Shown here piece by piece: positions 1 to 36,487 of a DNA stretch of 39,232 nucleotides (the first letter of the stretch is position 1; every line of letters begins with the position of its first letter). The notes beneath the pieces are model-generated. The model saw only the letters and a list, made by a program, of their open reading frames with translations, ran no database searches and had not been told where the DNA came from. The stretch is taken from NCBI GenBank assembly GCA_045644865.1, contig JAZRHS010000019.1, forward strand, positions 1 to 39,232. The letters run 5' to 3'. This DNA comes from Eubacteriales bacterium (GTDB lineage Bacteria; Bacillota; Clostridia; Oscillospirales; CAG-272). A program made the position numbers and the translations under genes.

Positions 1-48
1 TATATGTTAGTATCAATTTTTATATATAATTTTAGAAAGGGAAAAACA

Positions 49-138
49 ATGAGAAACACAAAGAAAACAACAAAAGCGTTACTTCTTGTGCTCGCTGTGG
101 TTATGGTTGTGGGCTTGTTTGCTGTCAGCGCGTTTGCT
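49..138 (+). other. Sec signal peptide (30 aa, predicted cleavage after SAFA)
   Basis: Basic n-region (RNTKKTTK), a hydrophobic core (ALLLVLAVVMVVGLFAV) and an AxA-like SAFA|AV cleavage site. Confidence 0.8.
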
Positions 139-3100
139 GCTGTAAATGAACAAAGCCGTTGCGACCATAAGCATTATGCTATCAACGAAGTAAAGACTGT
201 TTTGTCGGGAAATAATCCCTATTCATTTGGAATTTGTTCCGGATGTAAGCAGGGTGTAATGACTCCCCTTAACAATCTGTTGACCGAGTATACCGGCGAG
301 GCTGACAACAGGGTCAATAACGATCTTCTTGCTGGTGAAGAGGTGTTTGTAGATAACCTGACATATATTCAGGCATCTGAAAGCACACTCGGTTCTGGTG
401 CAAAGGACTACACGGTAGAGTTTGATGTCTATGTGGATAAAATCAATCCCGAGGCGGTTAACGCAAACTTTTTCGGTGTTGTAGCTTGGCAAAAGGTTGA
501 GGGTGAAAATAAGTTTGCGCCTCAGGACTTCCTCAGAATGTTTGCTAAGTCTGAAACAGAGGCAGAACTGAGAATAGGCAGAGATGCAACTGCGTCGCCT
601 CTTGTTACAACCATAAAGGTTGACGAAGGTTATCACTTCAAGTTAACCGTTAATCCCAGACAGGGACAGAGAGCGGTTGTAATTGAAAGCTATAATCTTT
701 CCAATCCTTCCGATGTCAGCATCGCAAGCGGTACAATGAATTGGATCGATAACGGTATGACTACCTACGATTTCCGTATCCTTGAGGGCGCGTGGGGAGA
801 ATTTTGGTTCGATAATTTTGCCTTCTACAACTATGACGAGGTTGAGCAGGAAGCTTGCAACCACGCGGATTATGAGCTTAATGGTGTGAATAAGCTTGTA
901 GTTAAGGGCGGCCTTTATGAGCTTGGCTCTTGCGAAGGTTGTAATCAGGCGGTAGTTGTTAACCACAAGAACCTTATTTACTCAAAGGCCGGTGCCGACA
1001 ATGTAGGTGAAGTCATAAACGATAAGATTCTTGCGGGAGAAACAATTAAGGTTACCAAAGAAAACCGCATATATACATCTTATGATGTGGTAGGTTCTTC
1101 TGACCCATATACAATTGAATTTGATGTTAAGATCAATAGCATCGATTCAAGTAAGAACAACACATCTATGCTGGATCTTGTTGGCAGCAATTATCAGTTC
1201 TTCCTCAGAATGTTTACTTCGTCTTCGGAAGAAGCACAGTTGAGAATAGGTAATTCTAACTCATCTCCGCTGGTTACAACCATAAAGAAGGACCATAGCT
1301 ATCACTTTAAGCTGGTTGTTGCTTCTAACTCTGTGGCTATTGAGGGCTATGATCTCGATACCAAAGAGACATTCAGACAGACAGGCACATTGGATGCTCT
1401 TGCAGCCGGCAATGCTACATATTATTTCAGAGTTTTCAACAACACTCTTGGAGATTTTGACTTCAGCAACTTCGTTCTTTACGGCGAGTGGTCTGATGCC
1501 CCCTGTGTTCACACAGGACACGCGGTTCATAATGAGAAGCTTATGGTTATAGACGGTAAGTTCTATAAGACAGGAAAGTGCGCAGGCTGTGGTGAAGATG
1601 TAAGAGCTTTGTTTGACAGCTTCTTAGAGGATTTGTCGGGCTCGTCTACTATAGTTAAGGACTACCTTCTTAACGGTAAACCCGTTAATATTACGGATAA
1701 CAAGAATGTTTATATTGCTGAAAAATATATTGGCGGTTCAGCAAAGGAATATGTTATTGAGTTCGATGTTGAAATTAATACTATCGATGCGGATAACATT
1801 CGCTATAGTGATGTGAATGACGGAACTATCAAAAGTAACGGTAGAACCTTCTTTGGTGCTACCGGATCCGACGGCAGTGGATACCAGCACTTCCTCAGAT
1901 TGTTTGTTGCACCGAAAAACGGAACAGATCCAAGCACAACAACCGATTATTATGATAACAAGGCGCAGCTCAGAATAGGCGATACTGCTTCTGCTCCTCT
2001 TGTTACTACTATCGAAGAGGGCCATAGCTATCACTTTAAGCTGTCGGTTAATCCTTATAAGGTTAACAACTTAAAATGGGTTACCATCGAGTGCTATGAT
2101 CTTTCCGCCCCCTTTGATGTTTATACGGTATCAGGAAAGATTGGCGACATTTCGGGTAATACATTTGTCCGCTTCCTTGACGGTAAATGGGTTAACTTTG
2201 ATTTGGCTAACTTTGTAATCTATAATGGTAAAGATGCCTTCCTTGAGCCCTGTACTCATGCGGCACTTGAGCTTATAAACACCAGAGTTGTTGTTGTAGA
2301 CGGCACACCTTATTTGACAGGTATTTGTAAGGACTGTGCAGAGGAACATAGCTTTAAGCTTGACAGCTTTTTGACTGCTATGAGCGGCTCTGAGAGCATA
2401 AACGCTGATCTTCTTGCAGGTAAGACTGTTACTGTTAAAGCAAATAAGAACATATATACTACAGAAAGTGTAGTTGGACCCAACGCTCTCAAGCCTTATA
2501 CTATTGAGTTTGATGTTAAGGTCAACTCAATTAATGAAGAAGAGCTTGCAAAATCGGGCACAGGCAGAAACTTCTTTGATGTTATGTCTTCAAAGAAGAG
2601 CTGGGGTGATGAATATCAGCGCTTCCTCAGATTGTTTGCCAAGGAGAACAACACAACACAGGCAGACATAAGGGCAGGCGCTAGCAATACTGCTCCCTTT
2701 GTTGCCACCATAACCGAGGGAAATACCTATCACTTTAAGATAGCTGTTGACCCCGCAAACAAAACAGTTAAGATTGAAAGCTATAATTTTGCAACTCCCG
2801 AAAAGCTTAACAGCGCAAATGGCGTTTATACCAAGCTTTTGGAAAACGCTGATAGCTATAAGTTCCGTTTCCTTGATGCTGAAAGCGGTAACTTTGAAAT
2901 CAGTAACTTTGCCTTCTATAATGGCGCAAAGGAAGAGGGGGTAAGCATCCCCTGCAATCACGGGCTTTATTCTCCCGTTACCTCGCAGCTATCTGTGGTA
3001 AACGGAAAGAGTTACCTGTTCCAGAGCTGTCCTGCTTGTAATGAGGAATTTATAGTTGCTTGTGATAGTCTTTTGGAGACTTCGACAAAATCAAATGCTG

Positions 3101-6100
3101 TAAACAACGCGTTCCTTAACGGTGAAACAGTCAAGCTTTCAGGAGAAAAACAAATATATTCTTCTGATGCTGCCATTGGCCCGGGTGCCGATCCGTATAC
3201 AGTTGAATTTGATGTCAAGATCAATAGCATTGATTCAAGCAAAAATAACAAGTCTATGTTTGATGCTACTGATAATAATACATATCAGTTCTTCCTCAGA
3301 ATGTTTACTTCGTCTTCGGAGGAAGCAAAATTGAGAATGGGTAATGCCGATACTTCTCCTTTGATTACAACCATAAAGAAGGGTCATAGCTATCACTTTA
3401 AGCTGGTTGTTGAACAGTTGGGTTCACAGGTATCGGTAGTTGTTGAGGGCTATGATCTCGATACCAAAGAGACCTTCAGACAGACCAGTAAGCTGGCTGC
3501 TCTTGCATCCGGTAAGTCCACATATTCTTTCAGAGTTATGAATGGTGCTGTTGGTGAATTTGAGTTCAGCAATCTTCTGTTCTATAAGACTAAGAACGCA
3601 ACAAACGAAGTTGACAACAATCATGTTCATACAAACAAATTCAACAATAATATAACAGTAACCAACTTTAATAATAAGGTAGAGTTCTCTTATACTTGTG
3701 TATGCGGTGAGAAGGTAACTCCCGTGAGCCAGATGGCTCTTATCGAACAGGATATTTACAGCTCCTATGAGGGTGCGGTAACCTTTGACGGTGTGGCTGT
3801 TTATGGTGAAACAAACTACGACGAAGAATGTATACCTGAATGGAATGAATATTGGATGTTCTTTGATTACAATGTAAGAAAAGCATCTAATGTTAATGCT
3901 GTTGTTGCTAAGATTGGTGATACAGTTATCAGCACAGTCAGCAAGACCTATAAGGCTCCTGCAACCGAATCGTATGCTATTAATGTAAGATGGATAGCAG
4001 AAGATGTTATTGATTACACGGTATATGTTGACGGTGTAGTTGTTGAGAGAAGATCTGACATTAAGATCAAGGGTGATTATACTGCTGTAACTCTTGGTGA
4101 TGATAATGCCAAGGATGTCAGATTAAACCTTGTTAAGATTATATGGGTAGATGTAACCGATGACTCTTCGGATATAGCTGAATTTGAATATTCTCAAGAC
4201 GATTCCTTGACATCCTGCACACATATTGCGCCTACTTATGGCGGAAGCATAGAGGTTGCTAACGCGCATATCGCATATAGATATACTTGCGGTAAGTGCG
4301 GTGAATATGTATATCTTGACAGCTATTATGATGCAGAGTATAGTGCTAAACAGAATGATGCCCTTATAGTGAATGAGAATGGCTCGGCAAAGATTTCCAA
4401 AGATTATAAAATGCTTTACTCAAAAATATCCGGCAGATTCTGGCTTGCATTTGATATTACATTTGATGCTCTTTATGGAAGTGAGTTGAGCGAAAATAAC
4501 ATTCTTAACTTTGATGGCAATGTAGCTAGCCCGTTGAGAGCGTATAATACAACCGTTGACGGTGAAGTGGCAGTTAAGATAACATCCAATCGTTCTGATA
4601 AGGGCGGCGGAGTTGAGCTTATAACAGCTAAGGCAGGTGATACTGTCAAGGTAGCTCTTTACAATGACTTTGGCGCTCACAGAGTTGATATCTATATAAA
4701 CGGCGAATACATGACTTCAAGAACCGATTTTATAGGTACGAGAAATGATGACGGTTATTTGAGAGTTCGTTTCCTTGATGGTAAATGGGCAGATATTACT
4801 ATAAACAACCTTGTGCTTGTAAGCGTTAATGACTTTACAAAAGAACACATTCACTCTAATGTGGAAAATAATCCTACTACGGTTGTTACAACCGAAGCAG
4901 GTCTTGTTCTCCTTGCTAAGTGTCCTTGCGGAGCAGAGTTCGTATCAGAGCAGATTATAGATGTTGTAGTTGATAATATTAAAGCTGTAGCGGGCAACGG
5001 AACAGTTGCTTTCAATGCTCCCACGGTTGATTATTGGATCGTTTCCGATATCTGCGCAAACGAGGACGCTACAGGCGCAATGCTTACTCTTGGCAAGACT
5101 GTTCTTCTCAGTGCCGATGAGCTAGATAAGAATGTTAAGTCAAGTGTTGCTGTCCACGTAAACGGCTATGATTACACACTTTATGTAAACGGAGAAGAGC
5201 TTAAGGATGGCACTTGGACAGGCGAAACAAAGGTAACATACGGTAATACAGGACTTTCTGACAAGACCCAGTTCATCTTCAATAAGATTGTTGTTCTTGG
5301 TTCTACAATCACACCTGTTGTACCTGATGTAAACGGCTGTAACCACGCTTCTGTAGGCGAGGTTGGAATTGTTTGTCCTGATTGCTACGAATATGTAGCA
5401 GTTATGTATCCTACCGTATCCGATTGCTACCATTCTGCAAAAGCAGATGGAAAAGCTTCTATCTATTTCGATGCTTACGGCGTTCTTAATACAGTTTACA
5501 ACTGCTCTGAGTGCGGAGCTCAGGTTACCGAAAGAATTGACCAGAGCCTTGTAAGAGGTTGGGATAATCCTAACTTTGGCGGTCAGGTTGGTACTCAAAT
5601 TCACGCAAAGGCAGACGAGTTTGAGCTTTCTGTAGGAAGCGCTCCCTATTGGATCATATTTGATGTTACAATGGCAGAGCTTCCCGCAATTCCTGAGAGT
5701 GATGAGACCGAGACAACATTCTCTAACAAGCGAGCTTATAAGGGATATAGCCTTGTAAATGTACAGGATGTACATGCCGGTGGCGACACAAACTATGTAT
5801 CTCAGCTTCGTATGTTTGTGGACGGATATGAACCCGGAAACGCAAAGCTTGATCTTGATAATGAAACTATTACCCCCGGTGAGACCGATGGTAAGGTAGA
5901 GGTTTATTTGGGTAACAAGACATGGAACTACAGAATGGGAGCATATGTTGCTACTCTTGAAAAGGATGTTAAGACTCATTTTGCAATCTATTTTGACCCC
6001 AATAACGGTAACTTTGATGTGTTTGTTAACGGCGAATATACCGCAAGCTCAAGCACAGGAACTCTTGGTAATAACAAAGCACCTCAGGTGCGCTTCTCTG

Positions 6101-9100
6101 AAAGCACCGACGGCGGTAAATTTATCTTTAACAAGATTGATATTGCAAGAGCTGCAGTCAGCTATGACGAAAAGGTAACTGTAATTGAAACCAACGCAAG
6201 ATATAAGAAGACAACCGATGCGGCAGGCACATACGAGCCTCTTGTTTCTATCGACAAAACTATCGCTATTAATAAGAAGGTTACCAAGGAGGAATACTCG
6301 ATAGTATCTCTTGGTCTTATCTATGTTGATACCTGCACAGGTCAGCTTGCTTACAGAACAGGTGCAGACACATATGTTCTCCTTGTAGATAAGGACGGCG
6401 AACCTCTTGTTGTTGAAGAGAGCTTTGGTTCTGATACTAAGCCTTCTTACTCTACAAAGCTTAATGTCGTTTATAACGGCATTGATGGTACAGCAAGATA
6501 CTTTGTAAACGGCAAGATTGCTTATGTTGCAGGCGAGGATGAGGTAATTCCTGTTGGAAATATCGAGGTTTACGATGCAAACGGCTTCTATGATGTAACA
6601 GGCGACACACAGAATATAGTTGTTCGCAGATATACAGATACAGTAAAGGAAAACGCTAATACTGTTGTTCGTGATGTTATTATAAACGAGCTTTATACTA
6701 CCGTTGATTCTGATACCGCTGAGATCATCGGTTTCCAGGAAAGCTATGTATCGCAGAGCCTTCGTTTTGTAGCGGGCTTGAACACAAACCTTTACAATGT
6801 TGTAGGCTTTGACATCAAGGTGCTTGATGTAGACGGCACCGACATAACAAAGCAGGATAAGCCTGTTTTGGCTAGCACCAGACTTTTTGATATAATCGAT
6901 GAGAACGGCAAGCTTGCATTCGCTGCACAGTATGGCTATAAGCACTTTGCAGTAATTGCAATTAACAATATGGATTGTTCTGACAAACCTGTTGCTGTTG
7001 GACAGAAGATCTATATAACTCCTTACACAGTTATTGGAAACACTAAGGTTTCTGGAAACGAGGTAGTTGTTGAGGTTATTAACACCTCTGCTGTTGAAGG
7101 TCAGACAATAATCGGTTATAAATATGCCAACGCTGATTTGGAAGTGATTCCCGAGGGCGAAGGCGATGTTGTTAATAATTATTCCAAGGATAGTCTTTAC
7201 GCCAAGGTTGGCGTAAAGGCTTCCGGAACAACCGGTATCGTTGCTATTAAAGACACATATGTTGTAAGAGGCAAGGCTAATGAGAACTATGGCGGCGAAG
7301 ATGTTCTTCGTATTAAAGCATATGACCGTAAAAATGCCGGCCTTAACAGAATTATGCTTCTCGAGTTTGATCTTACGGGCCTTGATGCAGCGAGCATTGA
7401 AAACGCAAAGCTTTCGCTTTATTGCTTCGCTACAGAGGATTCGACTGCTACCCCCATTGAGGTATATACTATTAACAACTGGGAGTGGGACGAGAATTCT
7501 GTAACATATAATGATTATAAGTCGAAGAGTAAAACCCTAATTACTGACACAAAGGTTGCGGGTTCAGGTTATGTTTTTGTAGATATTACTAACACAGTCA
7601 AGAACGCAATCAATAGTGGCAAAACAAAGCTTACTCTTGCTATTACAGGAACAGATGCTACACTCTTTAATAGAGACAAGATAATACGCCACCTTCAGTT
7701 CCATTCCAAGGAATATAATGGAGCAGATAACCTTAAGCCTCAGATCGTTTTGAGTGATGGATCTTCTGAGTATACAACAAATGTTAAGGTTAATAAGTCT
7801 GATAGCGTAGCAAATGTTTGGAACACAGCGTACACATATGTTAACGAATGGTTTGCAAGCAGAGATGAGATCCTTGCTCGCGAAGATGCGGTTGTTGACA
7901 CCATTGTTAGAAACAATAGTGAATACAGTGTTAGCGTAGGTGCAACAAGCAGCCATATAGATGCTATTGAGGGAAAATCTGGTGAATACGAAGCATATCC
8001 CACAAGACTTGTAAGTACTCTTGAAGGCTATACCCCTGACAGTACAGAGGTTGCGCTTTACAATCAGTACGGAAGCCTTATGGATGAGTCTATGAGACAG
8101 GAAGCTACAGGCTTCTTCTATACCAAGAAGATTGGCGACAGATGGTGGACAATCGACCCCGAGGGTTATCCCTTCTACAGAACCGCTTGTGTTTCTGTTG
8201 ATCTTGGCAGCTCGCTTCAGAAGAAGTATCAGGTTGCCGGTAAGTATGGAAGTGTAGATGCTTGGGCACAGGGAACAACAGACAGACTTAAGGAGCTTGG
8301 CTTTAACTCCACCGGTGGTTGGTCTAATATTGATCTTCTGTCCGTGGTTGATGAGCCTTTGACTCAGACAAGAATTCTTAATGTTCTTTCGGGTTATGCA
8401 AGCAAGATCGGAACTAATGAATCAAAGAGCGGAAATACAGATATTGCATACGGTGTTCTTCCTGTATTTGATCCCGGCTTTGTAAGCTATGCAAGAGATA
8501 CTATCTATGCAAAGGTTAACGAGTATGTTGATGCAGCGTATGTATATGGCTGGATGAGTGATAACGAGCTTCCCAGATCTAAGAATATGCTTGACAGTGC
8601 TCTTATGCTTGACCCAACTGACGCAAAGTTTGTATACAGCTATGCTACTGCTTGGACCTTTATGTATCTCATGACAGGCGATGTAAATGTTTCTCTTGCT
8701 GATATTACAGATGAGCTTCGTCTGGAATTCAGAGCAATGGTATATGACAGATACTATAAGGTAGTTACAGAATGGCTTGATGAGTTCGATCCCAACCATC
8801 TCTATATGGGTAGCCGACTTGTTGAAGGCGCATATCAGGATGAATACATTATCAGAGTTGCAGGTAAGTACTGTGATGTAATTACCTTCAACTACTACGG
8901 TGTATGGGAAGGCGATGCTGAGCTTCTTGCGAATATCGAAAAATGGTCCGGCAAGCCCTTCGTTATTACCGAGTGGTATACAAAGGGTATGGATGCGTGT
9001 TATTGTCTTGATGAGAACGGTAATTATTGTCTTGATGATAATGGGAATAAAATCAGCACAGGTTTTGGTCTTACTAATGAAGCAGGAGCAGGTTGGATTG

Positions 9101-9369
9101 TTAAAACACAGGATGACCGCGGTAAGTTCTATGAGAACTATGCGCTTCAGCTTCTTGAGTGCAAGGGTTGTGTAGGATTTGACTGGTTCAAGTATCTTGA
9201 TAATGACCCTTCCGATAGTAGTGCAGACTCGTCTAATACAAACGCAAATAAGGGTATTATTGATAACAAGGCTAATGAGTATACCGATCTTACAAAGCAT
9301 ATGGCTACACTCAATAACCAGAAATATAACCTTATTAAATTCTTTGATGCGAGAAAGCCAGAAAATTAA
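49..9369 (+). CDS. Giant secreted multidomain protein (3,106 aa): signal peptide, ten metal-knuckle + LamG/ConA-like modules, beta-rich region, DNRLRE/CBM96-like module, C-terminal clan GH-A glycoside-hydrolase-like domain
   Basis: A single uninterrupted ORF runs 4..9369. ATG at 49 follows AGAAAGGG (33-40) and opens MRNTKKTTKALLLVLAVVMVVGLFAVSAFA, a classic signal peptide, so I prefer it to the ATG at 4. Internal repeats and domain motifs are listed as separate features. There is no LPXTG, dockerin or SLH signature at the C-terminus. Confidence 0.85.
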   Translation: MRNTKKTTKALLLVLAVVMVVGLFAVSAFAAVNEQSRCDHKHYAINEVKTVLSGNNPYSFGICSGCKQGVMTPLNNLLTEYTGEADNRVNNDLLAGEEVFVDNLTYIQASESTLGSGAKDYTVEFDVYVDKINPEAVNANFFGVVAWQKVEGENKFAPQDFLRMFAKSETEAELRIGRDATASPLVTTIKVDEGYHFKLTVNPRQGQRAVVIESYNLSNPSDVSIASGTMNWIDNGMTTYDFRILEGAWGEFWFDNFAFYNYDEVEQEACNHADYELNGVNKLVVKGGLYELGSCEGCNQAVVVNHKNLIYSKAGADNVGEVINDKILAGETIKVTKENRIYTSYDVVGSSDPYTIEFDVKINSIDSSKNNTSMLDLVGSNYQFFLRMFTSSSEEAQLRIGNSNSSPLVTTIKKDHSYHFKLVVASNSVAIEGYDLDTKETFRQTGTLDALAAGNATYYFRVFNNTLGDFDFSNFVLYGEWSDAPCVHTGHAVHNEKLMVIDGKFYKTGKCAGCGEDVRALFDSFLEDLSGSSTIVKDYLLNGKPVNITDNKNVYIAEKYIGGSAKEYVIEFDVEINTIDADNIRYSDVNDGTIKSNGRTFFGATGSDGSGYQHFLRLFVAPKNGTDPSTTTDYYDNKAQLRIGDTASAPLVTTIEEGHSYHFKLSVNPYKVNNLKWVTIECYDLSAPFDVYTVSGKIGDISGNTFVRFLDGKWVNFDLANFVIYNGKDAFLEPCTHAALELINTRVVVVDGTPYLTGICKDCAEEHSFKLDSFLTAMSGSESINADLLAGKTVTVKANKNIYTTESVVGPNALKPYTIEFDVKVNSINEEELAKSGTGRNFFDVMSSKKSWGDEYQRFLRLFAKENNTTQADIRAGASNTAPFVATITEGNTYHFKIAVDPANKTVKIESYNFATPEKLNSANGVYTKLLENADSYKFRFLDAESGNFEISNFAFYNGAKEEGVSIPCNHGLYSPVTSQLSVVNGKSYLFQSCPACNEEFIVACDSLLETSTKSNAVNNAFLNGETVKLSGEKQIYSSDAAIGPGADPYTVEFDVKINSIDSSKNNKSMFDATDNNTYQFFLRMFTSSSEEAKLRMGNADTSPLITTIKKGHSYHFKLVVEQLGSQVSVVVEGYDLDTKETFRQTSKLAALASGKSTYSFRVMNGAVGEFEFSNLLFYKTKNATNEVDNNHVHTNKFNNNITVTNFNNKVEFSYTCVCGEKVTPVSQMALIEQDIYSSYEGAVTFDGVAVYGETNYDEECIPEWNEYWMFFDYNVRKASNVNAVVAKIGDTVISTVSKTYKAPATESYAINVRWIAEDVIDYTVYVDGVVVERRSDIKIKGDYTAVTLGDDNAKDVRLNLVKIIWVDVTDDSSDIAEFEYSQDDSLTSCTHIAPTYGGSIEVANAHIAYRYTCGKCGEYVYLDSYYDAEYSAKQNDALIVNENGSAKISKDYKMLYSKISGRFWLAFDITFDALYGSELSENNILNFDGNVASPLRAYNTTVDGEVAVKITSNRSDKGGGVELITAKAGDTVKVALYNDFGAHRVDIYINGEYMTSRTDFIGTRNDDGYLRVRFLDGKWADITINNLVLVSVNDFTKEHIHSNVENNPTTVVTTEAGLVLLAKCPCGAEFVSEQIIDVVVDNIKAVAGNGTVAFNAPTVDYWIVSDICANEDATGAMLTLGKTVLLSADELDKNVKSSVAVHVNGYDYTLYVNGEELKDGTWTGETKVTYGNTGLSDKTQFIFNKIVVLGSTITPVVPDVNGCNHASVGEVGIVCPDCYEYVAVMYPTVSDCYHSAKADGKASIYFDAYGVLNTVYNCSECGAQVTERIDQSLVRGWDNPNFGGQVGTQIHAKADEFELSVGSAPYWIIFDVTMAELPAIPESDETETTFSNKRAYKGYSLVNVQDVHAGGDTNYVSQLRMFVDGYEPGNAKLDLDNETITPGETDGKVEVYLGNKTWNYRMGAYVATLEKDVKTHFAIYFDPNNGNFDVFVNGEYTASSSTGTLGNNKAPQVRFSESTDGGKFIFNKIDIARAAVSYDEKVTVIETNARYKKTTDAAGTYEPLVSIDKTIAINKKVTKEEYSIVSLGLIYVDTCTGQLAYRTGADTYVLLVDKDGEPLVVEESFGSDTKPSYSTKLNVVYNGIDGTARYFVNGKIAYVAGEDEVIPVGNIEVYDANGFYDVTGDTQNIVVRRYTDTVKENANTVVRDVIINELYTTVDSDTAEIIGFQESYVSQSLRFVAGLNTNLYNVVGFDIKVLDVDGTDITKQDKPVLASTRLFDIIDENGKLAFAAQYGYKHFAVIAINNMDCSDKPVAVGQKIYITPYTVIGNTKVSGNEVVVEVINTSAVEGQTIIGYKYANADLEVIPEGEGDVVNNYSKDSLYAKVGVKASGTTGIVAIKDTYVVRGKANENYGGEDVLRIKAYDRKNAGLNRIMLLEFDLTGLDAASIENAKLSLYCFATEDSTATPIEVYTINNWEWDENSVTYNDYKSKSKTLITDTKVAGSGYVFVDITNTVKNAINSGKTKLTLAITGTDATLFNRDKIIRHLQFHSKEYNGADNLKPQIVLSDGSSEYTTNVKVNKSDSVANVWNTAYTYVNEWFASRDEILAREDAVVDTIVRNNSEYSVSVGATSSHIDAIEGKSGEYEAYPTRLVSTLEGYTPDSTEVALYNQYGSLMDESMRQEATGFFYTKKIGDRWWTIDPEGYPFYRTACVSVDLGSSLQKKYQVAGKYGSVDAWAQGTTDRLKELGFNSTGGWSNIDLLSVVDEPLTQTRILNVLSGYASKIGTNESKSGNTDIAYGVLPVFDPGFVSYARDTIYAKVNEYVDAAYVYGWMSDNELPRSKNMLDSALMLDPTDAKFVYSYATAWTFMYLMTGDVNVSLADITDELRLEFRAMVYDRYYKVVTEWLDEFDPNHLYMGSRLVEGAYQDEYIIRVAGKYCDVITFNYYGVWEGDAELLANIEKWSGKPFVITEWYTKGMDACYCLDENGNYCLDDNGNKISTGFGLTNEAGAGWIVKTQDDRGKFYENYALQLLECKGCVGFDWFKYLDNDPSDSSADSSNTNANKGIIDNKANEYTDLTKHMATLNNQKYNLIKFFDARKPEN
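1099..1385 (+). repeat. Intragenic DNA repeat copy A (inside module 2)
   Basis: Near-identical to 3190..3484. Exact shared runs: 38 nt (1192..1229 = 3283..3320, TATCAGTTCTTCCTCAGAATGTTTACTTCGTCTTCGGA), 28 nt (CATAGCTATCACTTTAAGCTGGTTGTTG) and 31 nt (TTGAGGGCTATGATCTCGATACCAAAGAGAC). Confidence 0.85.
3190..3484 (+). repeat. Intragenic DNA repeat copy B (inside module 5)
   Basis: Partner of 1099..1385, with the same exact runs listed there. Confidence 0.85.
7240..7758 (+). other. DNRLRE / CBM96-like carbohydrate-binding module (domain of the giant protein)
   Basis: The sequence DTYVVRGKANENYGGEDVLRIKAYDRKNAGLNRIMLLEFDLTGL...AKLSLYCF...IEVYTINNWEWDENSVTYNDY matches the DNRLRE-domain pattern as I remember it: D/NxxxR...LLxFDL...AxLxLY...W.E..VTWN. 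Boundaries are approximate. Confidence 0.6.
8104..9366 (+). other. Clan GH-A (beta/alpha)8 glycoside-hydrolase-like catalytic domain (GH50/GH42-like; family not resolved)
   Basis: The domain opens with DRWWTIDPEGYPFY. The candidate acid/base lies in WMSDNELP (NE, Glu codon 8566..8568) and the candidate nucleophile in FVITEWY (Glu codon 8971..8973). The spacing of about 135 aa is typical of clan GH-A. The family call comes from memory of motifs only. Confidence 0.55.
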
Positions 9370-26717: not shown

Positions 26718-27212
26718 ATGAAAAAGAAATTGACGACAGTCGAATTTCGCGGCACAAAGGAGCAGGAAGAAAAGCTTCTTGAGGTGATTGCGAAGTACGA
26801 CGGTGTTCCCGGAAAGACAATGCCTATTCTCCAGGAAGCACAGGACATCTACGGATATCTTCCCATAGAGGTTCAGACAATAATTGCCGAAAAGACGGGT
26901 ATTCCGCTGGAGGAGATCTTCGGAATCGCGTCCTTCTACGCGCAGTTCAAGCTTAACCCCAACGGCGAGGTTTCGATTGCAGTTTGTCTTGGAACAGCGT
27001 GCTATGTAAAGGGCTCGGGCGAGATAATCGAGGAGTTCTCAAGGTTGCTTGATCTTCCCGTGGGCAGCACATCTCCCGATGGAAGATATTCTATCGAGGC
27101 AACTCGTTGCATCGGCGCTTGCGGACTTGCTCCCGTTCTTACTGTTAACGGTGATGTTTACGGAAGACTTACCAAGGCTGATGTTGCAGGAATACTTGAA
27201 AAGTATAGATAA
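26718..27212 (+). CDS. hydC: NuoE-like [2Fe-2S] subunit of the bifurcating hydrogenase (HydC/HndA-type)
   Basis: Thioredoxin-like 2Fe-2S fold with CLGTACYVKG...CIGACGLAP. AGGAGG RBS. Confidence 0.85.
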   Translation: MKKKLTTVEFRGTKEQEEKLLEVIAKYDGVPGKTMPILQEAQDIYGYLPIEVQTIIAEKTGIPLEEIFGIASFYAQFKLNPNGEVSIAVCLGTACYVKGSGEIIEEFSRLLDLPVGSTSPDGRYSIEATRCIGACGLAPVLTVNGDVYGRLTKADVAGILEKYR

Positions 27213-27262
27213 TTAAAATTTTCTTGATTTAATGGGTGCTATAGCGCCTTGGAGAAGAAATT

Positions 27263-27613
27263 ATGAAAATAGGTGAAATCAGAGATCTCTTGAACGCTGA
27301 AATCCTTACAGGCGAGGATATGCTTGACTGTGAGGTTTCGTCTGCATTTTGTTGCGATATGATGAGCGATGTTCTCGCGTATGTCAAGGATCAGGGCGTT
27401 CTTGTTACAGGTCTTGTTAATCCCCAGGTTGTTCGTACTGCAAATATGATGGATATAGTTTGCATCGTGTTTGTAAGAGGTAAAGCTCCTACAGAAGAAA
27501 TGCTTGAGCTTGCAAAGGAATGCGACATTGCTGTCCTGCTCACCGACAAGCGTGCGTTTGACACAAGCGGAATTCTTTATATGGCGGGTCTTTCAAGAAG
27601 CATAGAGGGTTAG
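27263..27613 (+). CDS. DRTGG domain protein (116 aa)
   Basis: A small alpha/beta protein. The region DVLAYVKDQGVLVTGLVNPQVVRTANMMDIVCIVFVRG matches the DRTGG-domain pattern. Confidence 0.65.
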   Translation: MKIGEIRDLLNAEILTGEDMLDCEVSSAFCCDMMSDVLAYVKDQGVLVTGLVNPQVVRTANMMDIVCIVFVRGKAPTEEMLELAKECDIAVLLTDKRAFDTSGILYMAGLSRSIEG

Positions 27614-27616
27614 ATT

Positions 27617-28039
27617 ATGTCAGAACCCTTAAGATTTCATTTCGATGTTGACGGCTCCGACTTTTCAAGCGCGGGCGCCGCATCGGTTATGGTTAAGAAA
27701 AAGCTGCGTCAGCTTGGCTATGATCCCGAGGTTATCCGAAAAGTTTCCATCGCTATGTATGAGGGTGAAATAAATATGGTTATTCACGCTAATGGCGGAA
27801 CTGCGGATGTAGAGGTGTCAGACGAGGAGATAGTTATAATCCTTTGCGACAAGGGACCCGGTATACCCGATGTTGAGTTGGCGATGCAGGCGGGATATTC
27901 CACCGCACACGATAATATCCGAAATCTCGGATTTGGCGCGGGAATGGGTATTCCAAATATGATGAAATATACAGACTATATGCATATTGATACTGTTGTA
28001 GGAGAGGGAACTACAGTTACCATGAAGGTTAATTTGTAG
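27617..28039 (+). CDS. GHKL-type ATPase, anti-sigma-factor/Ser-kinase-like (RsbW/SpoIIAB-like), no DHp domain
   Basis: N-box EGEINMVIHA, G1 box DKGPGIP and G2 box GFGAGMGIPN. At 140 aa there is no His phosphoacceptor domain. Confidence 0.75.
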   Translation: MSEPLRFHFDVDGSDFSSAGAASVMVKKKLRQLGYDPEVIRKVSIAMYEGEINMVIHANGGTADVEVSDEEIVIILCDKGPGIPDVELAMQAGYSTAHDNIRNLGFGAGMGIPNMMKYTDYMHIDTVVGEGTTVTMKVNL

Positions 28040-28073
28040 CCCACAAAAAATCAAATAAGCTATCGAGGTACAT

Positions 28074-29405
28074 ATGAAGGCTGCTTACAAACACTCGGTA
28101 TCACTTGATATTGGGAAATGCAAAGGCTGTACAGCCTGCCTTAAACGGTGCCCCACGGAGGCCATTCGAATTCACGAAGGTCATGCCGTGATCAATTCCG
28201 CCAGATGTATCGACTGCGGAGAGTGTATAAGAGTTTGCCCGTCAAAGGCAAAAAAGGCAACTCACGACAGTCTTTCTGTGCTTAATGATTACAAATATAC
28301 CGTGGCACTTCCCGCACCGTCCTTTTACGGGCAGTTTGACAATCTTGACAATATCGGTTATATCATTAAAGGTCTGTTAGACCTTGGCTTTGATGATGTT
28401 TTTGAGGTGGCGTGCGCAGCAGAGCTTGTGAGCGCATATACGCGAAAATACATAAATCGTGAAGATATTAAAAAGCCGATAATCAGTTCTGCCTGTCCGA
28501 CGATAACCAGGTTGATCAGCACCAATTACCCTTATTTGTGTGAAAATATTATGCCTATCCTTCCGCCCATAGATGTTGCGGCAATGCTTGCGCGTGAAAA
28601 GGCGCTTGAGGAGCATCCCGAGCTTGCGCCCGAGGATATAGGAATAATATTTATTTCACCTTGCCCCGCAAAGGTCAGCTATATAAAAAACAACTTTGCA
28701 GGGGAGAGAAATTACATTTCGGCAGTGCTTTCTGTACGAGATGTGTATTTCGCCTTGCTTGACAAAATGAAGAAGGGCGATGCCGAACCGATTGAAGCTA
28801 CAGAATCGGGTATTATAGGCATTGGCTGGGCATCTACAGGCGGAGAGTCCTCTGCCATACTTAATGACAGGTATCTTGCCGCTGACGGTATAGAGAACTG
28901 TATAAGAGTTCTTGACCAGATAGACAGTGCGGATATTACACATCTTGATTTTGTTGAGCTTAACGCGTGTAACGGCGGTTGTGTGGGCGGAGCAATGACG
29001 GTTGCCAATGCGTATATTGCGCAGGCGCGGCTTCAGTCGCTTAAGAGATATTTGCCCATTTCGCCTAACAGACCCGCAAGCGATTGGATTCCCGACAAAT
29101 ATTTCCACGAAAAGAAGGTTGAATATAATCCTTACAGCTCGTTGTCTTCAGACAGAAAGACGGCAATGCAGATGATGCGCGATATCGAGGAGCTTACCAA
29201 AAAGCTTCCCGGACTTGACTGCGGCTCTTGCGGAGCGCCTACCTGTATGGCTTTTGCCGAGGATGTTGTTAAAAAGGAAACCAGCGTTGATGAATGTACC
29301 GTTATTCTTAAGCGCACGCTCAAGGAGTACGGTATAGACAGAGAAATGCTTAACTCGCATCTTATGGATTTTAGAAAAGGGGGCGGCTCAAATGACGGTG
29401 AATGA
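28074..29405 (+). CDS. HydS-like degenerate [FeFe]-hydrogenase H-domain protein (putative sensory, group C-like) with N-terminal 2x[4Fe-4S] and a C-terminal extra Fe-S domain
   Basis: N-terminal clusters CKGCTACLKRCP and CIDCGECIRVCP. H-cluster motifs are SSACP (28485-99) versus TSCCP, SPCPAKVSY versus MPCxxKxxE, and ELNACNGGCVGGAMT (28956-29000) versus ExMACxxGCxxGGGQP. The C-terminal CGSCGAPTC...DEC (29220-97) resembles the RnfB/CdhD-type putative Fe-S domain. Confidence 0.75.
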   Translation: MKAAYKHSVSLDIGKCKGCTACLKRCPTEAIRIHEGHAVINSARCIDCGECIRVCPSKAKKATHDSLSVLNDYKYTVALPAPSFYGQFDNLDNIGYIIKGLLDLGFDDVFEVACAAELVSAYTRKYINREDIKKPIISSACPTITRLISTNYPYLCENIMPILPPIDVAAMLAREKALEEHPELAPEDIGIIFISPCPAKVSYIKNNFAGERNYISAVLSVRDVYFALLDKMKKGDAEPIEATESGIIGIGWASTGGESSAILNDRYLAADGIENCIRVLDQIDSADITHLDFVELNACNGGCVGGAMTVANAYIAQARLQSLKRYLPISPNRPASDWIPDKYFHEKKVEYNPYSSLSSDRKTAMQMMRDIEELTKKLPGLDCGSCGAPTCMAFAEDVVKKETSVDECTVILKRTLKEYGIDREMLNSHLMDFRKGGGSNDGE

Positions 29406-29724
29406 TGTTTGCAGGATCATTGATGCAAAGCCTGTTTGCGGAGAGCTGTCAAAGAGCTTTGACGGTGTGTATATCGGAGATCTTCTCAGCAGGGCTATGA
29501 GCCATGTTGAGAGTGATAATCTCTGGGTTACCATAATGTCAAATGTTAATGTTGTGGCTGTCGCTACTTTGACAGAGCCTGCGGCGATAATTCTTGCCGA
29601 GGGTGTAGAGCTTCAGGACGACGCCCTTGACGGTGCAAGAAAAAATCAGATAACCGTGATTTCAACCGAGCTTTCGGCATATGAGATCGCCGTTAAGCTG
29701 CACCAAGCGGCTTTGGGGATGTGA
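29392..29724 (+). CDS. DRTGG domain protein (110 aa), second copy
   Basis: IGDLLSRAMSHVESDNLWVTIMSNVNVVAVATLTEPAAIILAEG. The gene overlaps its upstream neighbour by 14 nt. Confidence 0.6.
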   Translation: MTVNDVCRIIDAKPVCGELSKSFDGVYIGDLLSRAMSHVESDNLWVTIMSNVNVVAVATLTEPAAIILAEGVELQDDALDGARKNQITVISTELSAYEIAVKLHQAALGM

Positions 29725-29725
29725 T

Positions 29726-30490
29726 ATGAATCTCTATCGGTGCGATCTTCATATCCATTCCTGTCTTTCTCCTTGCGGAGATGAGGATATGACCCCCGGT
29801 AATATAGTTGGAATGGCGCTTCTCAACGGGCTTGAGATAGTCGCGTTGACCGACCATAATACCACAAAAAACTGTCCCGCCTTTTATAAGCTTGCCAAGA
29901 CTCACGGAATTATTCCCGTGGCGGGTGTTGAGCTTACAACATCGGAGGACATTCATGCGGTCTGCCTTTTTCGCTCGCTTGAAGCGGCTATGGATTTTGG
30001 AGAGCTTATAGAAAGCAAAAGAATACGAATTAAAAACCAACCCGAAATTTTCGGAAGGCAGCTTATTGTTAATGAGAATGATGAGGTGTGCGGTGAGGAG
30101 GAGTACCTTCTTATAAACGCGATTAATCTCTCTCTTGATGAAGCCTTTCGTGAGGTAAGCAAGCGTGGCGGTGTGTGCTATCCTGCGCACATTGACAGAA
30201 GCGCAAACGGTATAATTTCGATGCTCGGTGCTTTTCCGCCCGAGCCCGAGTTTACCGTCTTTGAGCTTAAGGAGCTGTCGTCGCTTGACGAATACAGGGC
30301 AAGATTTCCTATATTAAATGAACGGGGCTTGACCTGTGTTGCGGCATCTGACGCCCATTACCTTACGGATATTTCCGAGAGAGGGTTTGAAATTGAGATT
30401 GAGGACGAGCCTTACTCGTCCGATGCCGTCAGAAATAATCTTATAGATTATCTGCTTGGAGTTAAGAAGGGCGGTGAAAAGAATGGATGA
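29726..30490 (+). CDS. PHP-domain metal-dependent phosphoesterase
   Basis: DLHIHSCLSPCGD...VALTDHNT...PAHIDR...ASDAH is the PHP His/Asp metal-ligand series. ATG 29726 lies 1 nt after the upstream TGA. The track start at 29681 overlaps the previous gene. Confidence 0.8.
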   Translation: MNLYRCDLHIHSCLSPCGDEDMTPGNIVGMALLNGLEIVALTDHNTTKNCPAFYKLAKTHGIIPVAGVELTTSEDIHAVCLFRSLEAAMDFGELIESKRIRIKNQPEIFGRQLIVNENDEVCGEEEYLLINAINLSLDEAFREVSKRGGVCYPAHIDRSANGIISMLGAFPPEPEFTVFELKELSSLDEYRARFPILNERGLTCVAASDAHYLTDISERGFEIEIEDEPYSSDAVRNNLIDYLLGVKKGGEKNG

Positions 30491-31040
30491 GTTTTCACTT
30501 TATGTTCTTGATATAACCATGAACTCTGTGAGAGCAGGGGCAAGTGAAATTCTTATTGAGCTTGTTGAAGATGGTGAATGGCTTACCTTTACAGTTACAG
30601 ATAACGGTTGCGGTATGACCGCGGAGCAGGTAGAAAAGCTTTCAAATCCTTTCTTTACCACAAGAACTACCCGCAAGGTGGGGCTTGGTGTTCCGTTTCT
30701 TAAAATGCTTGCGGAAATGACAGGCGGAGAGGTTAAGATCTCCTCTGTTCACGAATCAGTGTCAGTTGAGCACGGCACAACGATACAGGCAAGATTTGGC
30801 AGAAATCATATAGATTTCATTCCCCTTGGGGATATGACTGACACAATAAAAACACTTATTCAAGGAGCTCCCGATATTGATTTTACATATCGGCATATAA
30901 CTAAAAACGGGGAAGTGCTTCTTTCCTGTGCGGATATGAGAGAGATTCTCGGAGATATTCCCTTGAACGAGCCCGAGATACTGAAATGGATAGGCGAAAG
31001 CCTTAATGAGCAGTATAATGAGGTTCGTAAATTCGGTTAA
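30483..31040 (+). CDS. GHKL-type ATPase (histidine-kinase-like ATPase domain only)
   Basis: N-box NSVRAG, G1 box DNGCGM and G2 box GLGVPF. There is no DHp or sensor domain. An ATGGATGA overlap couples it to the PHP gene. Confidence 0.75.
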   Translation: MDEFSLYVLDITMNSVRAGASEILIELVEDGEWLTFTVTDNGCGMTAEQVEKLSNPFFTTRTTRKVGLGVPFLKMLAEMTGGEVKISSVHESVSVEHGTTIQARFGRNHIDFIPLGDMTDTIKTLIQGAPDIDFTYRHITKNGEVLLSCADMREILGDIPLNEPEILKWIGESLNEQYNEVRKFG

Positions 31041-31073
31041 AATTTTTTATATAAAAACGAAAGGATAATTACT

Positions 31074-31445: not shown

Positions 31446-31479
31446 TTCATAGAAAGTAAATTAGGAGGAATAAATACAA

Positions 31480-33303: not shown

Positions 33304-33320
33304 GAAAGGAGAACCCAACT

Positions 33321-36480: not shown

Positions 36481-36487
36481 GGAGGAT

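What the first reader, a model, noticed from the sequence alone, without database searches (positions are those of the whole stretch)
160..5514. Ten extracellular (C/H)-x-H ... C-x(1,2)-C knuckles punctuate the giant protein
Every module of the giant secreted protein opens with the same four-ligand pattern.

- nt 160: CDH-x22-CSGC
- nt 856: CNH-x22-CEGC
- nt 1504: CVH-x22-CAGC
- nt 2251: CTH-x22-CKDC
- nt 2953: CNH-x22-CPAC
- nt 3622: HVH-x22-CVC
- nt 4216: CTH-x21-CGKC
- nt 4846: HIH-x22-CPC
- nt 5338: CNH-x9-CPDC
- nt 5425: CYH-x23-CSEC

The first ligand switches between Cys and His while the other three stay fixed. That is what a metal site (zinc-ribbon or treble-clef-like) does, not a disulfide pair. 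The intervening segment looks like a beta-hairpin (for example VVVDGTPYLTG).

Zinc-knuckle-type motifs repeated ten times as inter-domain connectors in a Sec-exported protein of an anaerobe are unusual. I cannot match them to a named domain.
Basis: seen in the sequence. Interest (0 to 1): 0.7.

Follow-up and report, generated by a model that had tools for sequence, protein, structure and literature searches.

The report
Zinc-ribbon-like caps on lectin-like modules
A giant secreted sugar-degrading enzyme from an uncultured gut anaerobe starts each of its nine lectin-like modules with a small, undescribed four-residue metal-binding clasp that resembles a zinc ribbon and may do the job disulfide bonds do elsewhere.

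Summary
All ten motifs are present at the stated coordinates and spacings. Shuffled sequence gives 0.004 matches against 11 observed. They lie in one 3121-aa Sec-exported protein. It has a signal peptide, nine units of knuckle plus ConA/LamG-like beta-sandwich, one knuckle with no sandwich, a family-typical terminal unit, a CBM96 domain and a GH50-like catalytic domain.

An exhaustive profile search of 1.84 billion protein representatives found only 68 relatives, mostly giant multi-copy secreted proteins. In the core family, 210 of 243 internal sandwiches follow a four-ligand knuckle. Unrelated LamG-like hits show this in 3 of 59 cases.

In modules clustered by sequence, ligand 1 switches among Cys, His and Asp. 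The second knuckle varies as CxC, CxxC or Cx4C, always keeping both Cys and usually a following Gly. AlphaFold predicts a three-stranded sheet with the CxxC at the beta2-beta3 turn. The only weak profile matches are zinc ribbons. No Pfam or NCBIfam model covers the unit.

Best reading: a new extracellular zinc-ribbon variant (CHCC or HHCC) that acts as a structural metal staple.

The parts
49..138 (+). Probable true start and Sec signal peptide (MRNTKKTTKALLLVLAVVMVVGLFAVSAFA|AV); no twin-arginine motif
   Evidence: AGAAAGGGA lies 6 nt upstream of the ATG at nt 49. The sequence has a K-rich n-region, a hydrophobic core and AFA-A. All full-length homologs have the same kind of N-terminus.
160..246 (+). 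Knuckle 1: C53-D-H55-x22-C78-SG-C81
247..843 (+). Module 1 body, ConA/LamG-like beta-sandwich
   Evidence: Iterated body HMM hit at aa 93-279, E 8e-32. Aligns with modules 2-5.
856..942 (+). Knuckle 2: C285-N-H-x22-C-EG-C313
943..1491 (+). Module 2 body, LamG-like. Three stretches within nt 1102-1469 (345 nt in total) are 79-88% identical at DNA level to the module 5 body.
1504..1590 (+). Knuckle 3: C501-V-H-x22-C-AG-C529
1591..2238 (+). Module 3 body, LamG-like
2251..2337 (+). Knuckle 4: C750-T-H-x22-C-KD-C778 (the knuckle that was modelled)
   Evidence: AlphaFold gives a three-stranded sheet. Knuckle-only model mean pLDDT is 85.9. In the whole-module model pLDDT is 75-79 over residues 11-40.
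2338..2940 (+). Module 4 body, ConA/legume-lectin-like beta-sandwich
   Evidence: AlphaFold mean pLDDT 78.5, pTM 0.77. Foldseek against PDB gives ulvan lyase 6d3u and legume lectins at E 3e-6 to 4e-5, probability 1.00.
2953..3039 (+). Knuckle 5: C984-N-H-x22-C-PA-C1012
3040..3609 (+). Module 5 body, LamG-like
3622..3705 (+). Knuckle 6: H1207-V-H-x22-C-V-C1234 (HHCC type)
   Evidence: The HxH+CxC type occurs 68 times in the family.
3706..4203 (+). Module 6 body, divergent LamG-like ('YW..D.N.R' subtype)
   Evidence: Body HMM E 7.5e-8
4216..4299 (+). Knuckle 7: C1405-T-H-x21-C-GK-C1432
4300..4833 (+). Module 7 body, LamG-like
4846..4929 (+). Knuckle 8: H1615-I-H-x22-C-P-C1642 (HHCC type)
   Evidence: Falls in similarity cluster 7 with homolog modules.
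4930..5325 (+). Module 8 body, short divergent LamG-like
   Evidence: Body HMM E 1.9e-6
5338..5385 (+). Knuckle 9: C1779-N-H-x9-C-PD-C1794. Orphan mini-knuckle with no body, 13 aa before knuckle 10.
   Evidence: By eye it resembles the first knuckle (CxH-x13-CxxC) of the Cys/His-rich C-terminal tail of homologs.
5425..5514 (+). Knuckle 10: C1808-Y-H-x23-C-SE-C1837
5515..6168 (+). Module 10 body, LamG-like
   Evidence: Body HMM E 3.6e-30
6169..7233 (+). Knuckle-less terminal unit of the family. It forms the C-terminus of relative P0026. No Pfam match.
   Evidence: BLASTP to the last 315 aa of P0026: 30% identity, E 4e-36. No Pfam family.
7234..7752 (+). CBM96 / DNRLRE domain
   Evidence: Pfam PF24517, E 2.6e-25. 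NCBIfam NF033679, E 4.4e-25. PDB 8wab, E 3.4e-13.
7999..9303 (+). GH50-like catalytic region
   Evidence: phmmer against PDB: 5t3b (glycoside hydrolase) E 3.8e-47; beta-agarases 4bq2, 5z6p and 6xj9 E 1e-22 to 1e-16.

Best explanation
Each motif is a roughly 40-residue zinc-ribbon-like mini-domain. It consists of:
- an atypical first ligand pair (C-x-H or H-x-H; in relatives also D-x-H and C-x2-4-H);
- a beta-hairpin;
- a canonical second knuckle ([YF]-x-C-x(1,2)-C-G) at the turn into a third strand.

The four side chains most likely bind one structural metal ion, probably Zn(II), as Cys3His or Cys2His2. This clamps the N-terminal three-stranded sheet that connects one ConA/LamG-like module to the next.

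The protein is exported unfolded through Sec by a strict anaerobe, into a reducing environment where disulfides are not a dependable staple. A metal picked up outside the cell would stabilise each connector instead. Because the knuckle is the first part of each module to emerge, it could also nucleate folding of a 3100-aa chain.

The modules themselves are probably glycan-binding units that serve the C-terminal CBM96 and GH50-like enzyme.

Shown here: the motif, its periodicity, its family-wide conservation, ligand-type substitutions, predicted secondary structure, the lectin-like fold and the export signal.

Inferred: metal binding, the identity of the metal, and the stabilising or folding role.
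For: - **Motifs and chance.** Ten motifs are at the exact coordinates, and chance expectation is 0.004 per protein.
- **Family.** An exhaustive HMM search of 1.84e9 representatives gives 68 hits, mostly 1-4.3 kaa proteins with 5-18 copies.
- **Body-anchored census.** This count does not depend on the motif. In the core family, 210 of 243 internal LamG-like bodies follow a four-ligand knuckle. In weak non-family LamG hits the figure is 3 of 59.
- **Ligand statistics over 234 knuckles**:
  - ligand 1 is Cys in 132, His in 93, Asp in 5;
  - Gly follows the last Cys in 83%;
  - Tyr or Phe sits two residues before the third ligand in 69%;
  - the spacer mode is 22-24 residues.
- **Switches within similarity clusters.** Ligand 1 changes among H, C and D, and the second knuckle changes among CxC, CxxC and Cx4C, with both Cys always kept (clusters 0, 1, 6, 10).
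- **Predicted structure.** The knuckle-only AlphaFold model has mean pLDDT 85.9 with strands at 12-20, 23-30 and 36-40. The hairpin therefore brings C30 and C33 back to the end where C5 and H7 enter. The whole-module model shows the same strands.
- **Similarity to zinc ribbons.** The knuckle profile searched against PDB sequences mostly returns zinc-ribbon, zinc-finger and rubredoxin-type proteins: eL42 at E 0.0024, TFS/Rpb9 1qyp at E 0.009, RpoP, Zn-ribbon RNA-binding proteins and rubrerythrin. hhalign to the 1qyp ribbon gives 86% probability over beta2, knuckle 2 and beta3.
- **Export.** The signal peptide is Sec-type with no twin-arginine motif, here and in all full-length relatives.
- **Anaerobic spore-former context.** The window holds spoIVA and a HydABC-type [FeFe]-hydrogenase.
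- **Background.** Daniels et al. report that aerobic Firmicutes tend to exclude Cys from their proteins, including exported ones (PMC2823432). That makes 28 conserved Cys in a Firmicute exported protein conspicuous.
Against: - No coordinates were obtainable, so ligand-ligand distances and tetrahedral geometry were not measured.
- The first ligand pair lies in a lower-confidence N-terminal coil. Mean pLDDT for residues 1-10 is 69 in the knuckle-only model and 47 in the whole-module model.
- C-x-H is not a canonical zinc knuckle.
- Foldseek of the knuckle alone was not significant (best E 0.22, generic small sheets).
- Sequence similarity to zinc ribbons is sub-threshold and covers only the second half of the domain.
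- 33 of 243 family bodies lack a complete knuckle, so the sandwich can exist without one.
- The association of CxH with CxxC and of HxH with CxC largely follows module subfamily, so it is not independent evidence of contact.
- There are no experimental metal data.
Confidence: 0.72

Rival explanations
1. The ligand set is the same, but the cofactor differs. The sites would bind Fe(II)/Fe(III) as in rubredoxin, or a [2Fe-2S] cluster as in Rieske (CxH...CxxH) or mitoNEET (Cys3His) centres. That would give redox-active extracellular sites.
For: - C-x-H followed by C-x2-C recalls Rieske box 1 and box 2 (own knowledge).
- Rubrerythrin and rubredoxin appear among the weak profile hits.
- Fe(II) is available in an anoxic gut.
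Against: - The fourth ligand is Cys, never His, and the Rieske extra Cys pair is absent.
- HxH...CxC and DxH variants do not fit Fe-S ligation.
- The signal peptide is Sec-type, not Tat, so a pre-assembled cluster cannot be exported.
- The sites are about 200 residues apart, which is too far for electron hopping (inference).
Confidence: 0.1
2. There is no metal. The Cys and His residues would be a conserved structural or packing motif, or would form a CxxC disulfide with a spare thiol.
For: - Metal binding has not been measured.
- The first pair is modelled with modest confidence.
Against: - Type A knuckles have an odd number of Cys, and type B have a strained CxC.
- The invariant His, and ligand 1 varying only among Cys, His and Asp, are unexplained by packing or disulfides.
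- The host is a strict anaerobe.
- The C-x2-C-G knuckle signature and the aromatic residue at -2 match zinc knuckles.
Confidence: 0.1
3. The motif is a reactive site. A Cys-His dyad at each module boundary would drive autoprocessing of the polyprotein into single modules, or covalent cross-linking to glycans or cell wall.
For: The motif sits exactly at module boundaries, and Cys and His lie close together.
Against: - The putative nucleophile Cys is replaced by His or Asp in 98 of 234 knuckles, including within similarity clusters.
- The CxxC pair would have no role.
- No similarity to Hint, thioester or peptidase families was found.
Confidence: 0.04
4. The pattern is a chance or compositional artefact of a repetitive protein.
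For: The motifs lie in tandem repeats, so one ancestral occurrence could have been copied.
Against: - Modules share only 13-41% identity, yet the four positions are the only near-invariant ones apart from one Asp.
- Shuffles give 0.004 matches per protein.
- The pattern is conserved across roughly 45 distant proteins.
Confidence: 0.01

Closest known systems
Classical zinc ribbon (TFIIS / Rpb9 / archaeal TFS C-terminal ribbon, RpoP/Rpb12, eL42)
   Same: - Two ligand pairs are separated by about 22-24 residues that form a beta-hairpin.
- The second knuckle is aromatic-x-C-x2-C-G at the turn into a third strand.
- A three-stranded antiparallel sheet is predicted.
- These proteins are the best profile matches.
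   Different: - The first knuckle is C-x-H, H-x-H or D-x-H rather than C-x2-C, and is not predicted as a hairpin knuckle.
- The ligand set is CHCC or HHCC.
- About a third of second knuckles are C-x-C.
- The domain is extracellular, repeated up to 18 times per protein, and fused to a lectin-like sandwich rather than to nucleic-acid machinery.
- Similarity is below any family threshold.
Pneumococcal histidine-triad (Pht) surface proteins (own knowledge)
   Same: A Firmicute surface or secreted protein that carries several repeated Zn-binding motifs along one chain, outside the cell.
   Different: - Pht uses HxxHxH triads with no Cys, and a different fold.
- Its proposed role is zinc acquisition or homeostasis, not stapling modules.
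- There is no sequence relationship (motif absent).
Rieske-type [2Fe-2S] motif C-x-H ... C-x2-H (own knowledge)
   Same: A first box of C-x-H is followed, after a loop of similar length, by a second box that starts with C-x2.
   Different: - The last ligand here is Cys.
- HxH/CxC variants occur.
- Export is by Sec rather than Tat.
- The Rieske fold and its extra disulfide Cys pair are absent.
ConA/LamG-like lectin and CBM modules (Pfam Laminin_G_3, legume lectins)
   Same: The body of each module is predicted as this beta-sandwich (Foldseek probability 1.00). Relatives give sub-threshold Laminin_G_3 hits.
   Different: - No Pfam model reaches threshold.
- Among the structural and family matches recovered here, none showed an N-terminal Cys/His knuckle as an integral cap.
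Multimodular GH50 enzymes (S. degradans Aga50D 4bq2; 5t3b)
   Same: The C-terminal catalytic region is homologous (E 3.8e-47 to 5t3b) and follows carbohydrate-binding modules.
   Different: The N-terminal extension of about 2000 aa, with ten knuckles and nine lectin-like modules, has no counterpart among the solved GH50 chains that matched the catalytic region (750-765 aa or shorter).

Membership tests
Zinc ribbon fold group | Second zinc knuckle (C-x2-C, usually followed by Gly) at a beta-turn | tested here: met
   C-x(1,2)-C is followed by Gly in 83% of 234 knuckles. It lies between predicted strands 23-30 and 36-40. It aligns with the CTKCG knuckle of 1qyp.
Zinc ribbon fold group | First zinc knuckle of C-x2-C type from a beta-hairpin | tested here: not met
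   The first pair is C-x-H, H-x-H, D-x-H or C-x2-4-H. It lies in a predicted coil before strand 1.
Zinc ribbon fold group | Three-stranded antiparallel beta-sheet carrying the two ligand pairs at one end | tested here: met
   AlphaFold predicts strands 12-20, 23-30 and 36-40 at mean pLDDT 85.9. This is a prediction only. That both pairs lie at one end is inferred from hairpin topology.
Zinc ribbon fold group | Four ligands coordinate one Zn tetrahedrally | not testable with these tools
   The tools return no model coordinates, and there are no metal data.
Zinc ribbon fold group | Significant sequence or structure match to a curated zinc-ribbon family | tested here: inconclusive
   - Best PDB profile hit: E 0.0024.
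- hhalign: 86% probability over 20 columns.
- Pfam zinc-ribbon families: sporadic hits at E > 0.001.
- Foldseek: E 0.22 or worse.
Treble-clef zinc finger | Last two ligands come from the N-terminus of an alpha-helix | tested here: not met
   A beta-strand (36-40) follows the CxxC. No helix is predicted in the knuckle.
Rieske [2Fe-2S] domain | C-x-H ... C-x2-H ligand set, with His as the fourth ligand | tested here: not met
   The fourth ligand is Cys in all 234 knuckles.
Rieske [2Fe-2S] domain | Export of the folded cofactor-bearing protein via a Tat (twin-arginine) signal when extracytoplasmic | tested here: not met
   The signal peptide is MRNTKKTTKALLL..., with no RR motif, here and in relatives.
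c-type haem attachment site | C-x2-C-H | tested here: not met
   The listed residues after the last Cys are G, D, N, E, K, Q, A and S. His was not among the residues the motif pattern accepted at that position, and none of the ten window knuckles has His there.
ConA/LamG-like (Pfam Laminin_G_3, PF13385) | Match to the Pfam model above its gathering score | tested here: not met
   The window protein gives no hit at E <= 1. Relatives score 20-22 bits against a cut-off of 27.6.
ConA/LamG-like (Pfam Laminin_G_3, PF13385) | Concanavalin-like two-sheet beta-sandwich fold | tested here: met
   Foldseek of the module 4 model gives 197 PDB hits at E <= 1e-3. Top hits are ulvan lyase and legume lectins, with TM 0.33-0.44. 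This rests on a predicted structure.
CBM96 | Match to PF24517 / NF033679 above threshold | tested here: met
   89.6 bits against a cut-off of 26, and 88.6 bits against 34.
Glycoside hydrolase family 50 | Sequence homology of the catalytic domain to characterised GH50 structures | tested here: met
   5t3b at E 3.8e-47. Agarases 4bq2, 5z6p and 6xj9 at E 1e-22 to 1e-16. Catalytic residues and activity were not examined.
Pht histidine-triad proteins | HxxHxH motif repeats | tested here: not met
   No such motif occurs in the translation.

The most novel reading that the evidence does not exclude
The knuckles may be more than passive staples. They could be reversible metal or redox switches exposed outside a strict anaerobe. 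Cys-rich Zn (or Fe(II)) sites at every module boundary would lose their metal on oxidation, or when the gut lumen is metal-starved or sulfide-rich. The rigidity, protease resistance or glycan binding of the whole 3100-aa enzyme would then depend on luminal redox and metal status. That would make this an undescribed class of extracellular metal-gated carbohydrate-binding array.
Probability: 0.12. Interest if true: 0.75.

Novelty: new variant of a known kind. Interest (0 to 1): 0.5.

Why it matters
Zinc ribbons are known mainly as intracellular modules of transcription and translation machinery and of nucleic-acid-binding proteins.

Here a CHCC/HHCC variant appears to have been recruited as a repeated extracellular cap on lectin-like modules. 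It occurs up to 18 times per protein, in a rare and wholly unannotated family of giant secreted proteins from uncultured gut Clostridia.

If the sites bind metal, three things follow:
- Strict anaerobes would have a way to stabilise very long exported proteins without disulfides.
- The work defines a new domain, and a knuckle-plus-LamG unit, that could be added to Pfam or InterPro and used to annotate giant CAZyme-associated proteins.
- It identifies a possible link between luminal zinc availability and glycan degradation.

If the sites do not bind metal, the strict conservation of four classic ligand residues would itself need explaining.

Tried and rejected
- **The search for homologous proteins.** A single module and a 26-sequence family alignment both returned nothing, although the exhaustive search found relatives. 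The word-index search is not informative for this family.
- **The search for related loci.** Module 5 found no relative among 185,579 GTDB species genomes.
- **The look-up of encoding contigs.** The window protein and its closest relative P0001 are not on record.
- **Foldseek of the 42-residue knuckle model.** This gave only generic small-sheet matches, with E 0.22 or worse. It neither supports nor refutes a zinc ribbon.
- **Covariation of CxH with CxxC and of HxH with CxC** (91, 69, 23 and 1 cases). I considered this as contact evidence, but discounted it because it mostly tracks module subfamily.
- **Rejected readings.**
  - Haem c site: no CxxCH.
  - Rieske centre: the fourth ligand is Cys and export is by Sec.
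  - Treble clef: no helix follows the CxxC.
  - Catalytic Cys-His dyad: the Cys is replaceable by His or Asp.
- **Literature.** Full-text searches for extracellular or secreted zinc ribbons with LamG or CBM modules, or for giant Clostridia proteins of this kind, found nothing relevant.
- **Source names.** No source names any of the eight relatives that were looked up.

Full report
**Observation**

The window opens with one ORF, 4..9369 on the plus strand, of 3121 aa. The probable real start is the ATG at nt 49. It follows AGAAAGGGA and begins a classic Sec signal peptide, MRNTKKTTKALLLVLAVVMVVGLFAVSAFA|AV.

Eight are C-x-H ... C-x2-C (spacers of 22, 22, 22, 22, 22, 21, 9 and 23 residues). Two are H-x-H ... 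C-x-C (spacer of 22 residues).

The motifs account for 28 of the protein's 42 Cys. Residue shuffles give 0.004 matches per protein, against 11 observed.

Nine motifs head tandem modules of 164-249 aa. These modules align with each other at 13-41% identity. In that alignment the only invariant columns are the His, the two C-terminal Cys and one Asp. The ninth motif (nt 5338) is an orphan mini-knuckle, 13 residues ahead of the tenth.

**What the protein is**

- Pfam and NCBIfam recognise only a CBM96/DNRLRE domain at aa 2411-2583.
- The last ~430 aa are homologous to GH50 structures: 5t3b at E 3.8e-47, and beta-agarases at E 1e-22 to 1e-16.
- The N-terminal 2000 aa match nothing in PDB sequences, Pfam or NCBIfam.
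- An AlphaFold model of module 4 (mean pLDDT 78.5, pTM 0.77) shows an N-terminal three-stranded sheet, a short low-confidence linker, and a beta-sandwich.
- Foldseek matches that sandwich to an ulvan lyase and to many legume lectins, at E 3e-6 to 4e-5 and probability 1.00.
- aa 2056-2410 are homologous to the C-terminal 315 aa of relative P0026 (30% identity, E 4e-36).

The window protein therefore looks like a complete family-type array (signal peptide, knuckle-lectin modules, terminal unit) fused to a CBM96-GH50 enzyme.

The rest of the window is a Clostridia chromosome. It holds rimM, trmD, uvrC, spoIVA, ychF, truB and a HydABC-type [FeFe]-hydrogenase operon. SpoIVA is 88% identical to that of a faecal Eubacteriales MAG. 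The host is thus an uncultured, spore-forming gut anaerobe.

**The family**

An exhaustive profile search of 1.84 billion representatives found only 68 proteins at E <= 1e-3, and 34 at E <= 1e-10. Most are 1000-4320 aa long, with 5-18 matched stretches.

No source names any of the eight relatives that were looked up. Pfam gives only sub-threshold Laminin_G_3 and stray zinc-ribbon hints on relatives.

All full-length members carry Sec-type signal peptides without a twin-arginine motif. One member sits next to a BNR sialidase, a GH3 enzyme and a DHDPS-family gene (the family that includes sialic-acid lyases), which points to glycan degradation.

**Is the knuckle a conserved feature?**

A regex scan of the fetched proteins finds 184 strict knuckles.

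To avoid circularity, I located LamG-like bodies with an iterated HMM that excludes the knuckle columns, then inspected the sequence in front of each body.
- In the core family, 165 of 243 internal bodies follow a strict knuckle.
- Another 45 follow a relaxed one (C-x2-4-H or D-x-H, with C-x1-2-C).
- Among weak, unrelated LamG hits, only 3 of 59 show either form.

Most bodies without a knuckle are the first domain after the signal peptide, or carry C-x3/4-C variants.

Over 234 knuckles:
- ligand 1 is Cys in 132, His in 93 and Asp in 5;
- Gly follows the last Cys in 83%;
- Tyr or Phe sits two residues before the third ligand in 69%;
- the spacer peaks at 22-24 residues.

**Metal site or something else?**

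Several observations favour a metal site.

1. Cys, His and Asp are the canonical zinc ligands. They replace one another at ligand 1 inside clusters of modules grouped by sequence similarity:
   - HxHFPD changes to CxHFPD;
   - DIHTGAW changes to HLHTGAW and to CGGDH;
   - HxH changes to CNADH.

   The second knuckle changes among CxC, CxxC and Cx4C but never loses a Cys.
2. The sites hold three Cys, or two in a CxC. Neither arrangement suits disulfide pairing. The host is a strict anaerobe. Daniels et al. report that aerobic Firmicutes tend to exclude Cys from their proteins, including exported ones (PMC2823432).
3. A knuckle-only AlphaFold model built on 141 sequences reaches mean pLDDT 85.9, with strands at 12-20, 23-30 and 36-40. 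The CxxC therefore lies at the beta2-beta3 turn. The hairpin returns it to the end where C5 and H7 enter. This is zinc-ribbon topology, not a treble clef, which would have a helix after the CxxC.
4. The knuckle profile searched against all PDB sequences returns only weak hits, most of them zinc-ribbon, zinc-finger or rubredoxin-type proteins: eL42 at E 0.0024, TFS/Rpb9 1qyp at E 0.009, RpoP, Zn-ribbon RNA-binding proteins and rubrerythrin.
5. hhalign to the 1qyp ribbon gives 86% probability over beta2, knuckle 2 and beta3. I supplied the 1qyp sequence from memory, and it agrees with the positions printed. Its C-x2-C-x24-C-x2-C layout nearly matches the C-x-H-x22-C-x2-C layout here.

**Limits of the evidence**

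- The tools give no coordinates, so I could not measure ligand distances.
- The first pair is modelled with modest confidence.
- Foldseek of the tiny domain was uninformative.
- The pairing of CxH with CxxC and of HxH with CxC mostly follows module subfamily.
- Some bodies lack knuckles.
- Metal binding is an inference.

**Mechanism proposed**

Each knuckle is an extracellular zinc-ribbon variant (CHCC or HHCC) that takes up a metal ion after Sec translocation, most likely Zn(II). It clamps the three-stranded connector in front of each lectin-like module. In doing so it would play the stabilising role that disulfides cannot play reliably outside an anaerobe.

Because it is the first part of each module to emerge, it may also nucleate folding of a very long chain. 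This last point is speculative.

The lectin-like modules probably bind glycans for the C-terminal CBM96-GH50 enzyme.

**Rivals considered**

- Fe or Fe-S centres. The Rieske-like first box is suggestive. However, the fourth ligand is always Cys, HxH/CxC variants exist, and export is by Sec.
- A non-metal packing motif or a disulfide.
- A catalytic Cys-His dyad. The Cys is replaceable by His or Asp.
- Chance, which is excluded.

**Novelty**

The fold class is known. Three things appear undescribed: this ligand pattern, its extracellular and highly repeated use, and its fixed fusion to a LamG-like sandwich.
- No Pfam-A (2025) or NCBIfam model covers the knuckle or the unit.
- No PDB sequence is related.
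- Full-text literature searches found nothing.
- InterPro member databases other than Pfam and NCBIfam, and HHpred, were not available.

I rate it a new variant of a known kind, of moderate interest.

Noticed in passing
Relatives P0001-P0004, P0007, P0009, P0011-P0015, P0017, P0022, P0028, P0060 (C-termini): Many family members end in a conserved Cys/His-rich tail of about 90 aa: C-x-H-x13-C-x2-C ... H-x-Y ... W-x-K-Y-x-C-x2-C-G-x-[YF]-x-[IV]-x-F-N ... L-x-F ... L-x2-Y-L ... Y-x-P-[VI]-F. The window protein lacks this tail and ends in CBM96-GH50 instead. It could be an anchoring or sorting module. No Pfam hit was found on the one tail-bearing relative scanned (P0004).
   Followed up: partly
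window 5338-5385: Knuckle 9 (CNH-x9-CPDC) has no sandwich behind it. By eye it resembles the first mini-knuckle of the C-terminal tail seen in relatives. It may be a remnant of such a tail or of a lost module.
   Followed up: no
window 1102-1469 versus 3190-3572: Three stretches of the module 2 and module 5 bodies (345 nt in total, within a span of about 370 nt) are 79-88% identical at DNA level. Their knuckles are much more divergent. This suggests a recent intragenic duplication or gene conversion limited to the sandwich. Relative P0001 carries a nearly identical copy of this body.
   Followed up: partly
window 6169-7233: This 355-aa stretch has no Pfam match. It is homologous (E 4e-36) to the unit that forms the C-terminus of relative P0026, and similar C-terminal sequences are visible by eye in several others. 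The window protein therefore looks like a fusion of a whole family-type protein with a CBM96-GH50 enzyme.
   Followed up: partly
window 26718-35069: A HydABC-type, probably electron-bifurcating, [FeFe]-hydrogenase cluster. It comprises NuoE-like 2Fe-2S proteins, a HydA-like sensory protein, HATPase and PHP genes, a NuoF-like subunit and HydA.
   Followed up: no
P0048 aa 40-170; P0006 aa 1950-2080: Tandem Cys/His knuckles with no sandwich body, of the form H ... [PA]-x-C ... G ... C-x(1,2)-C-G. They repeat every 35-50 aa and have no Pfam match. Extracellular knuckle repeats may therefore be broader than this one family.
   Followed up: no
L082 (contig carrying P0016): A family member lies between a DHDPS-family gene (the family that includes sialic-acid lyases) plus an AraC regulator and a 1908-aa BNR sialidase, with a GH3 enzyme nearby. 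This ties the family to host-glycan or sialoglycan foraging.
   Followed up: no
window 36398-38647: A 749-aa ORF directly after a GntR regulator and an ABC ATPase has no Pfam match. It may be the permease partner.
   Followed up: no
tool behaviour, versus 24 and 44: The word-indexed homology search returned no hits, even for a 26-sequence family alignment. Yet the relatives found by the exhaustive search are recorded as members of that same collection.
   Followed up: no
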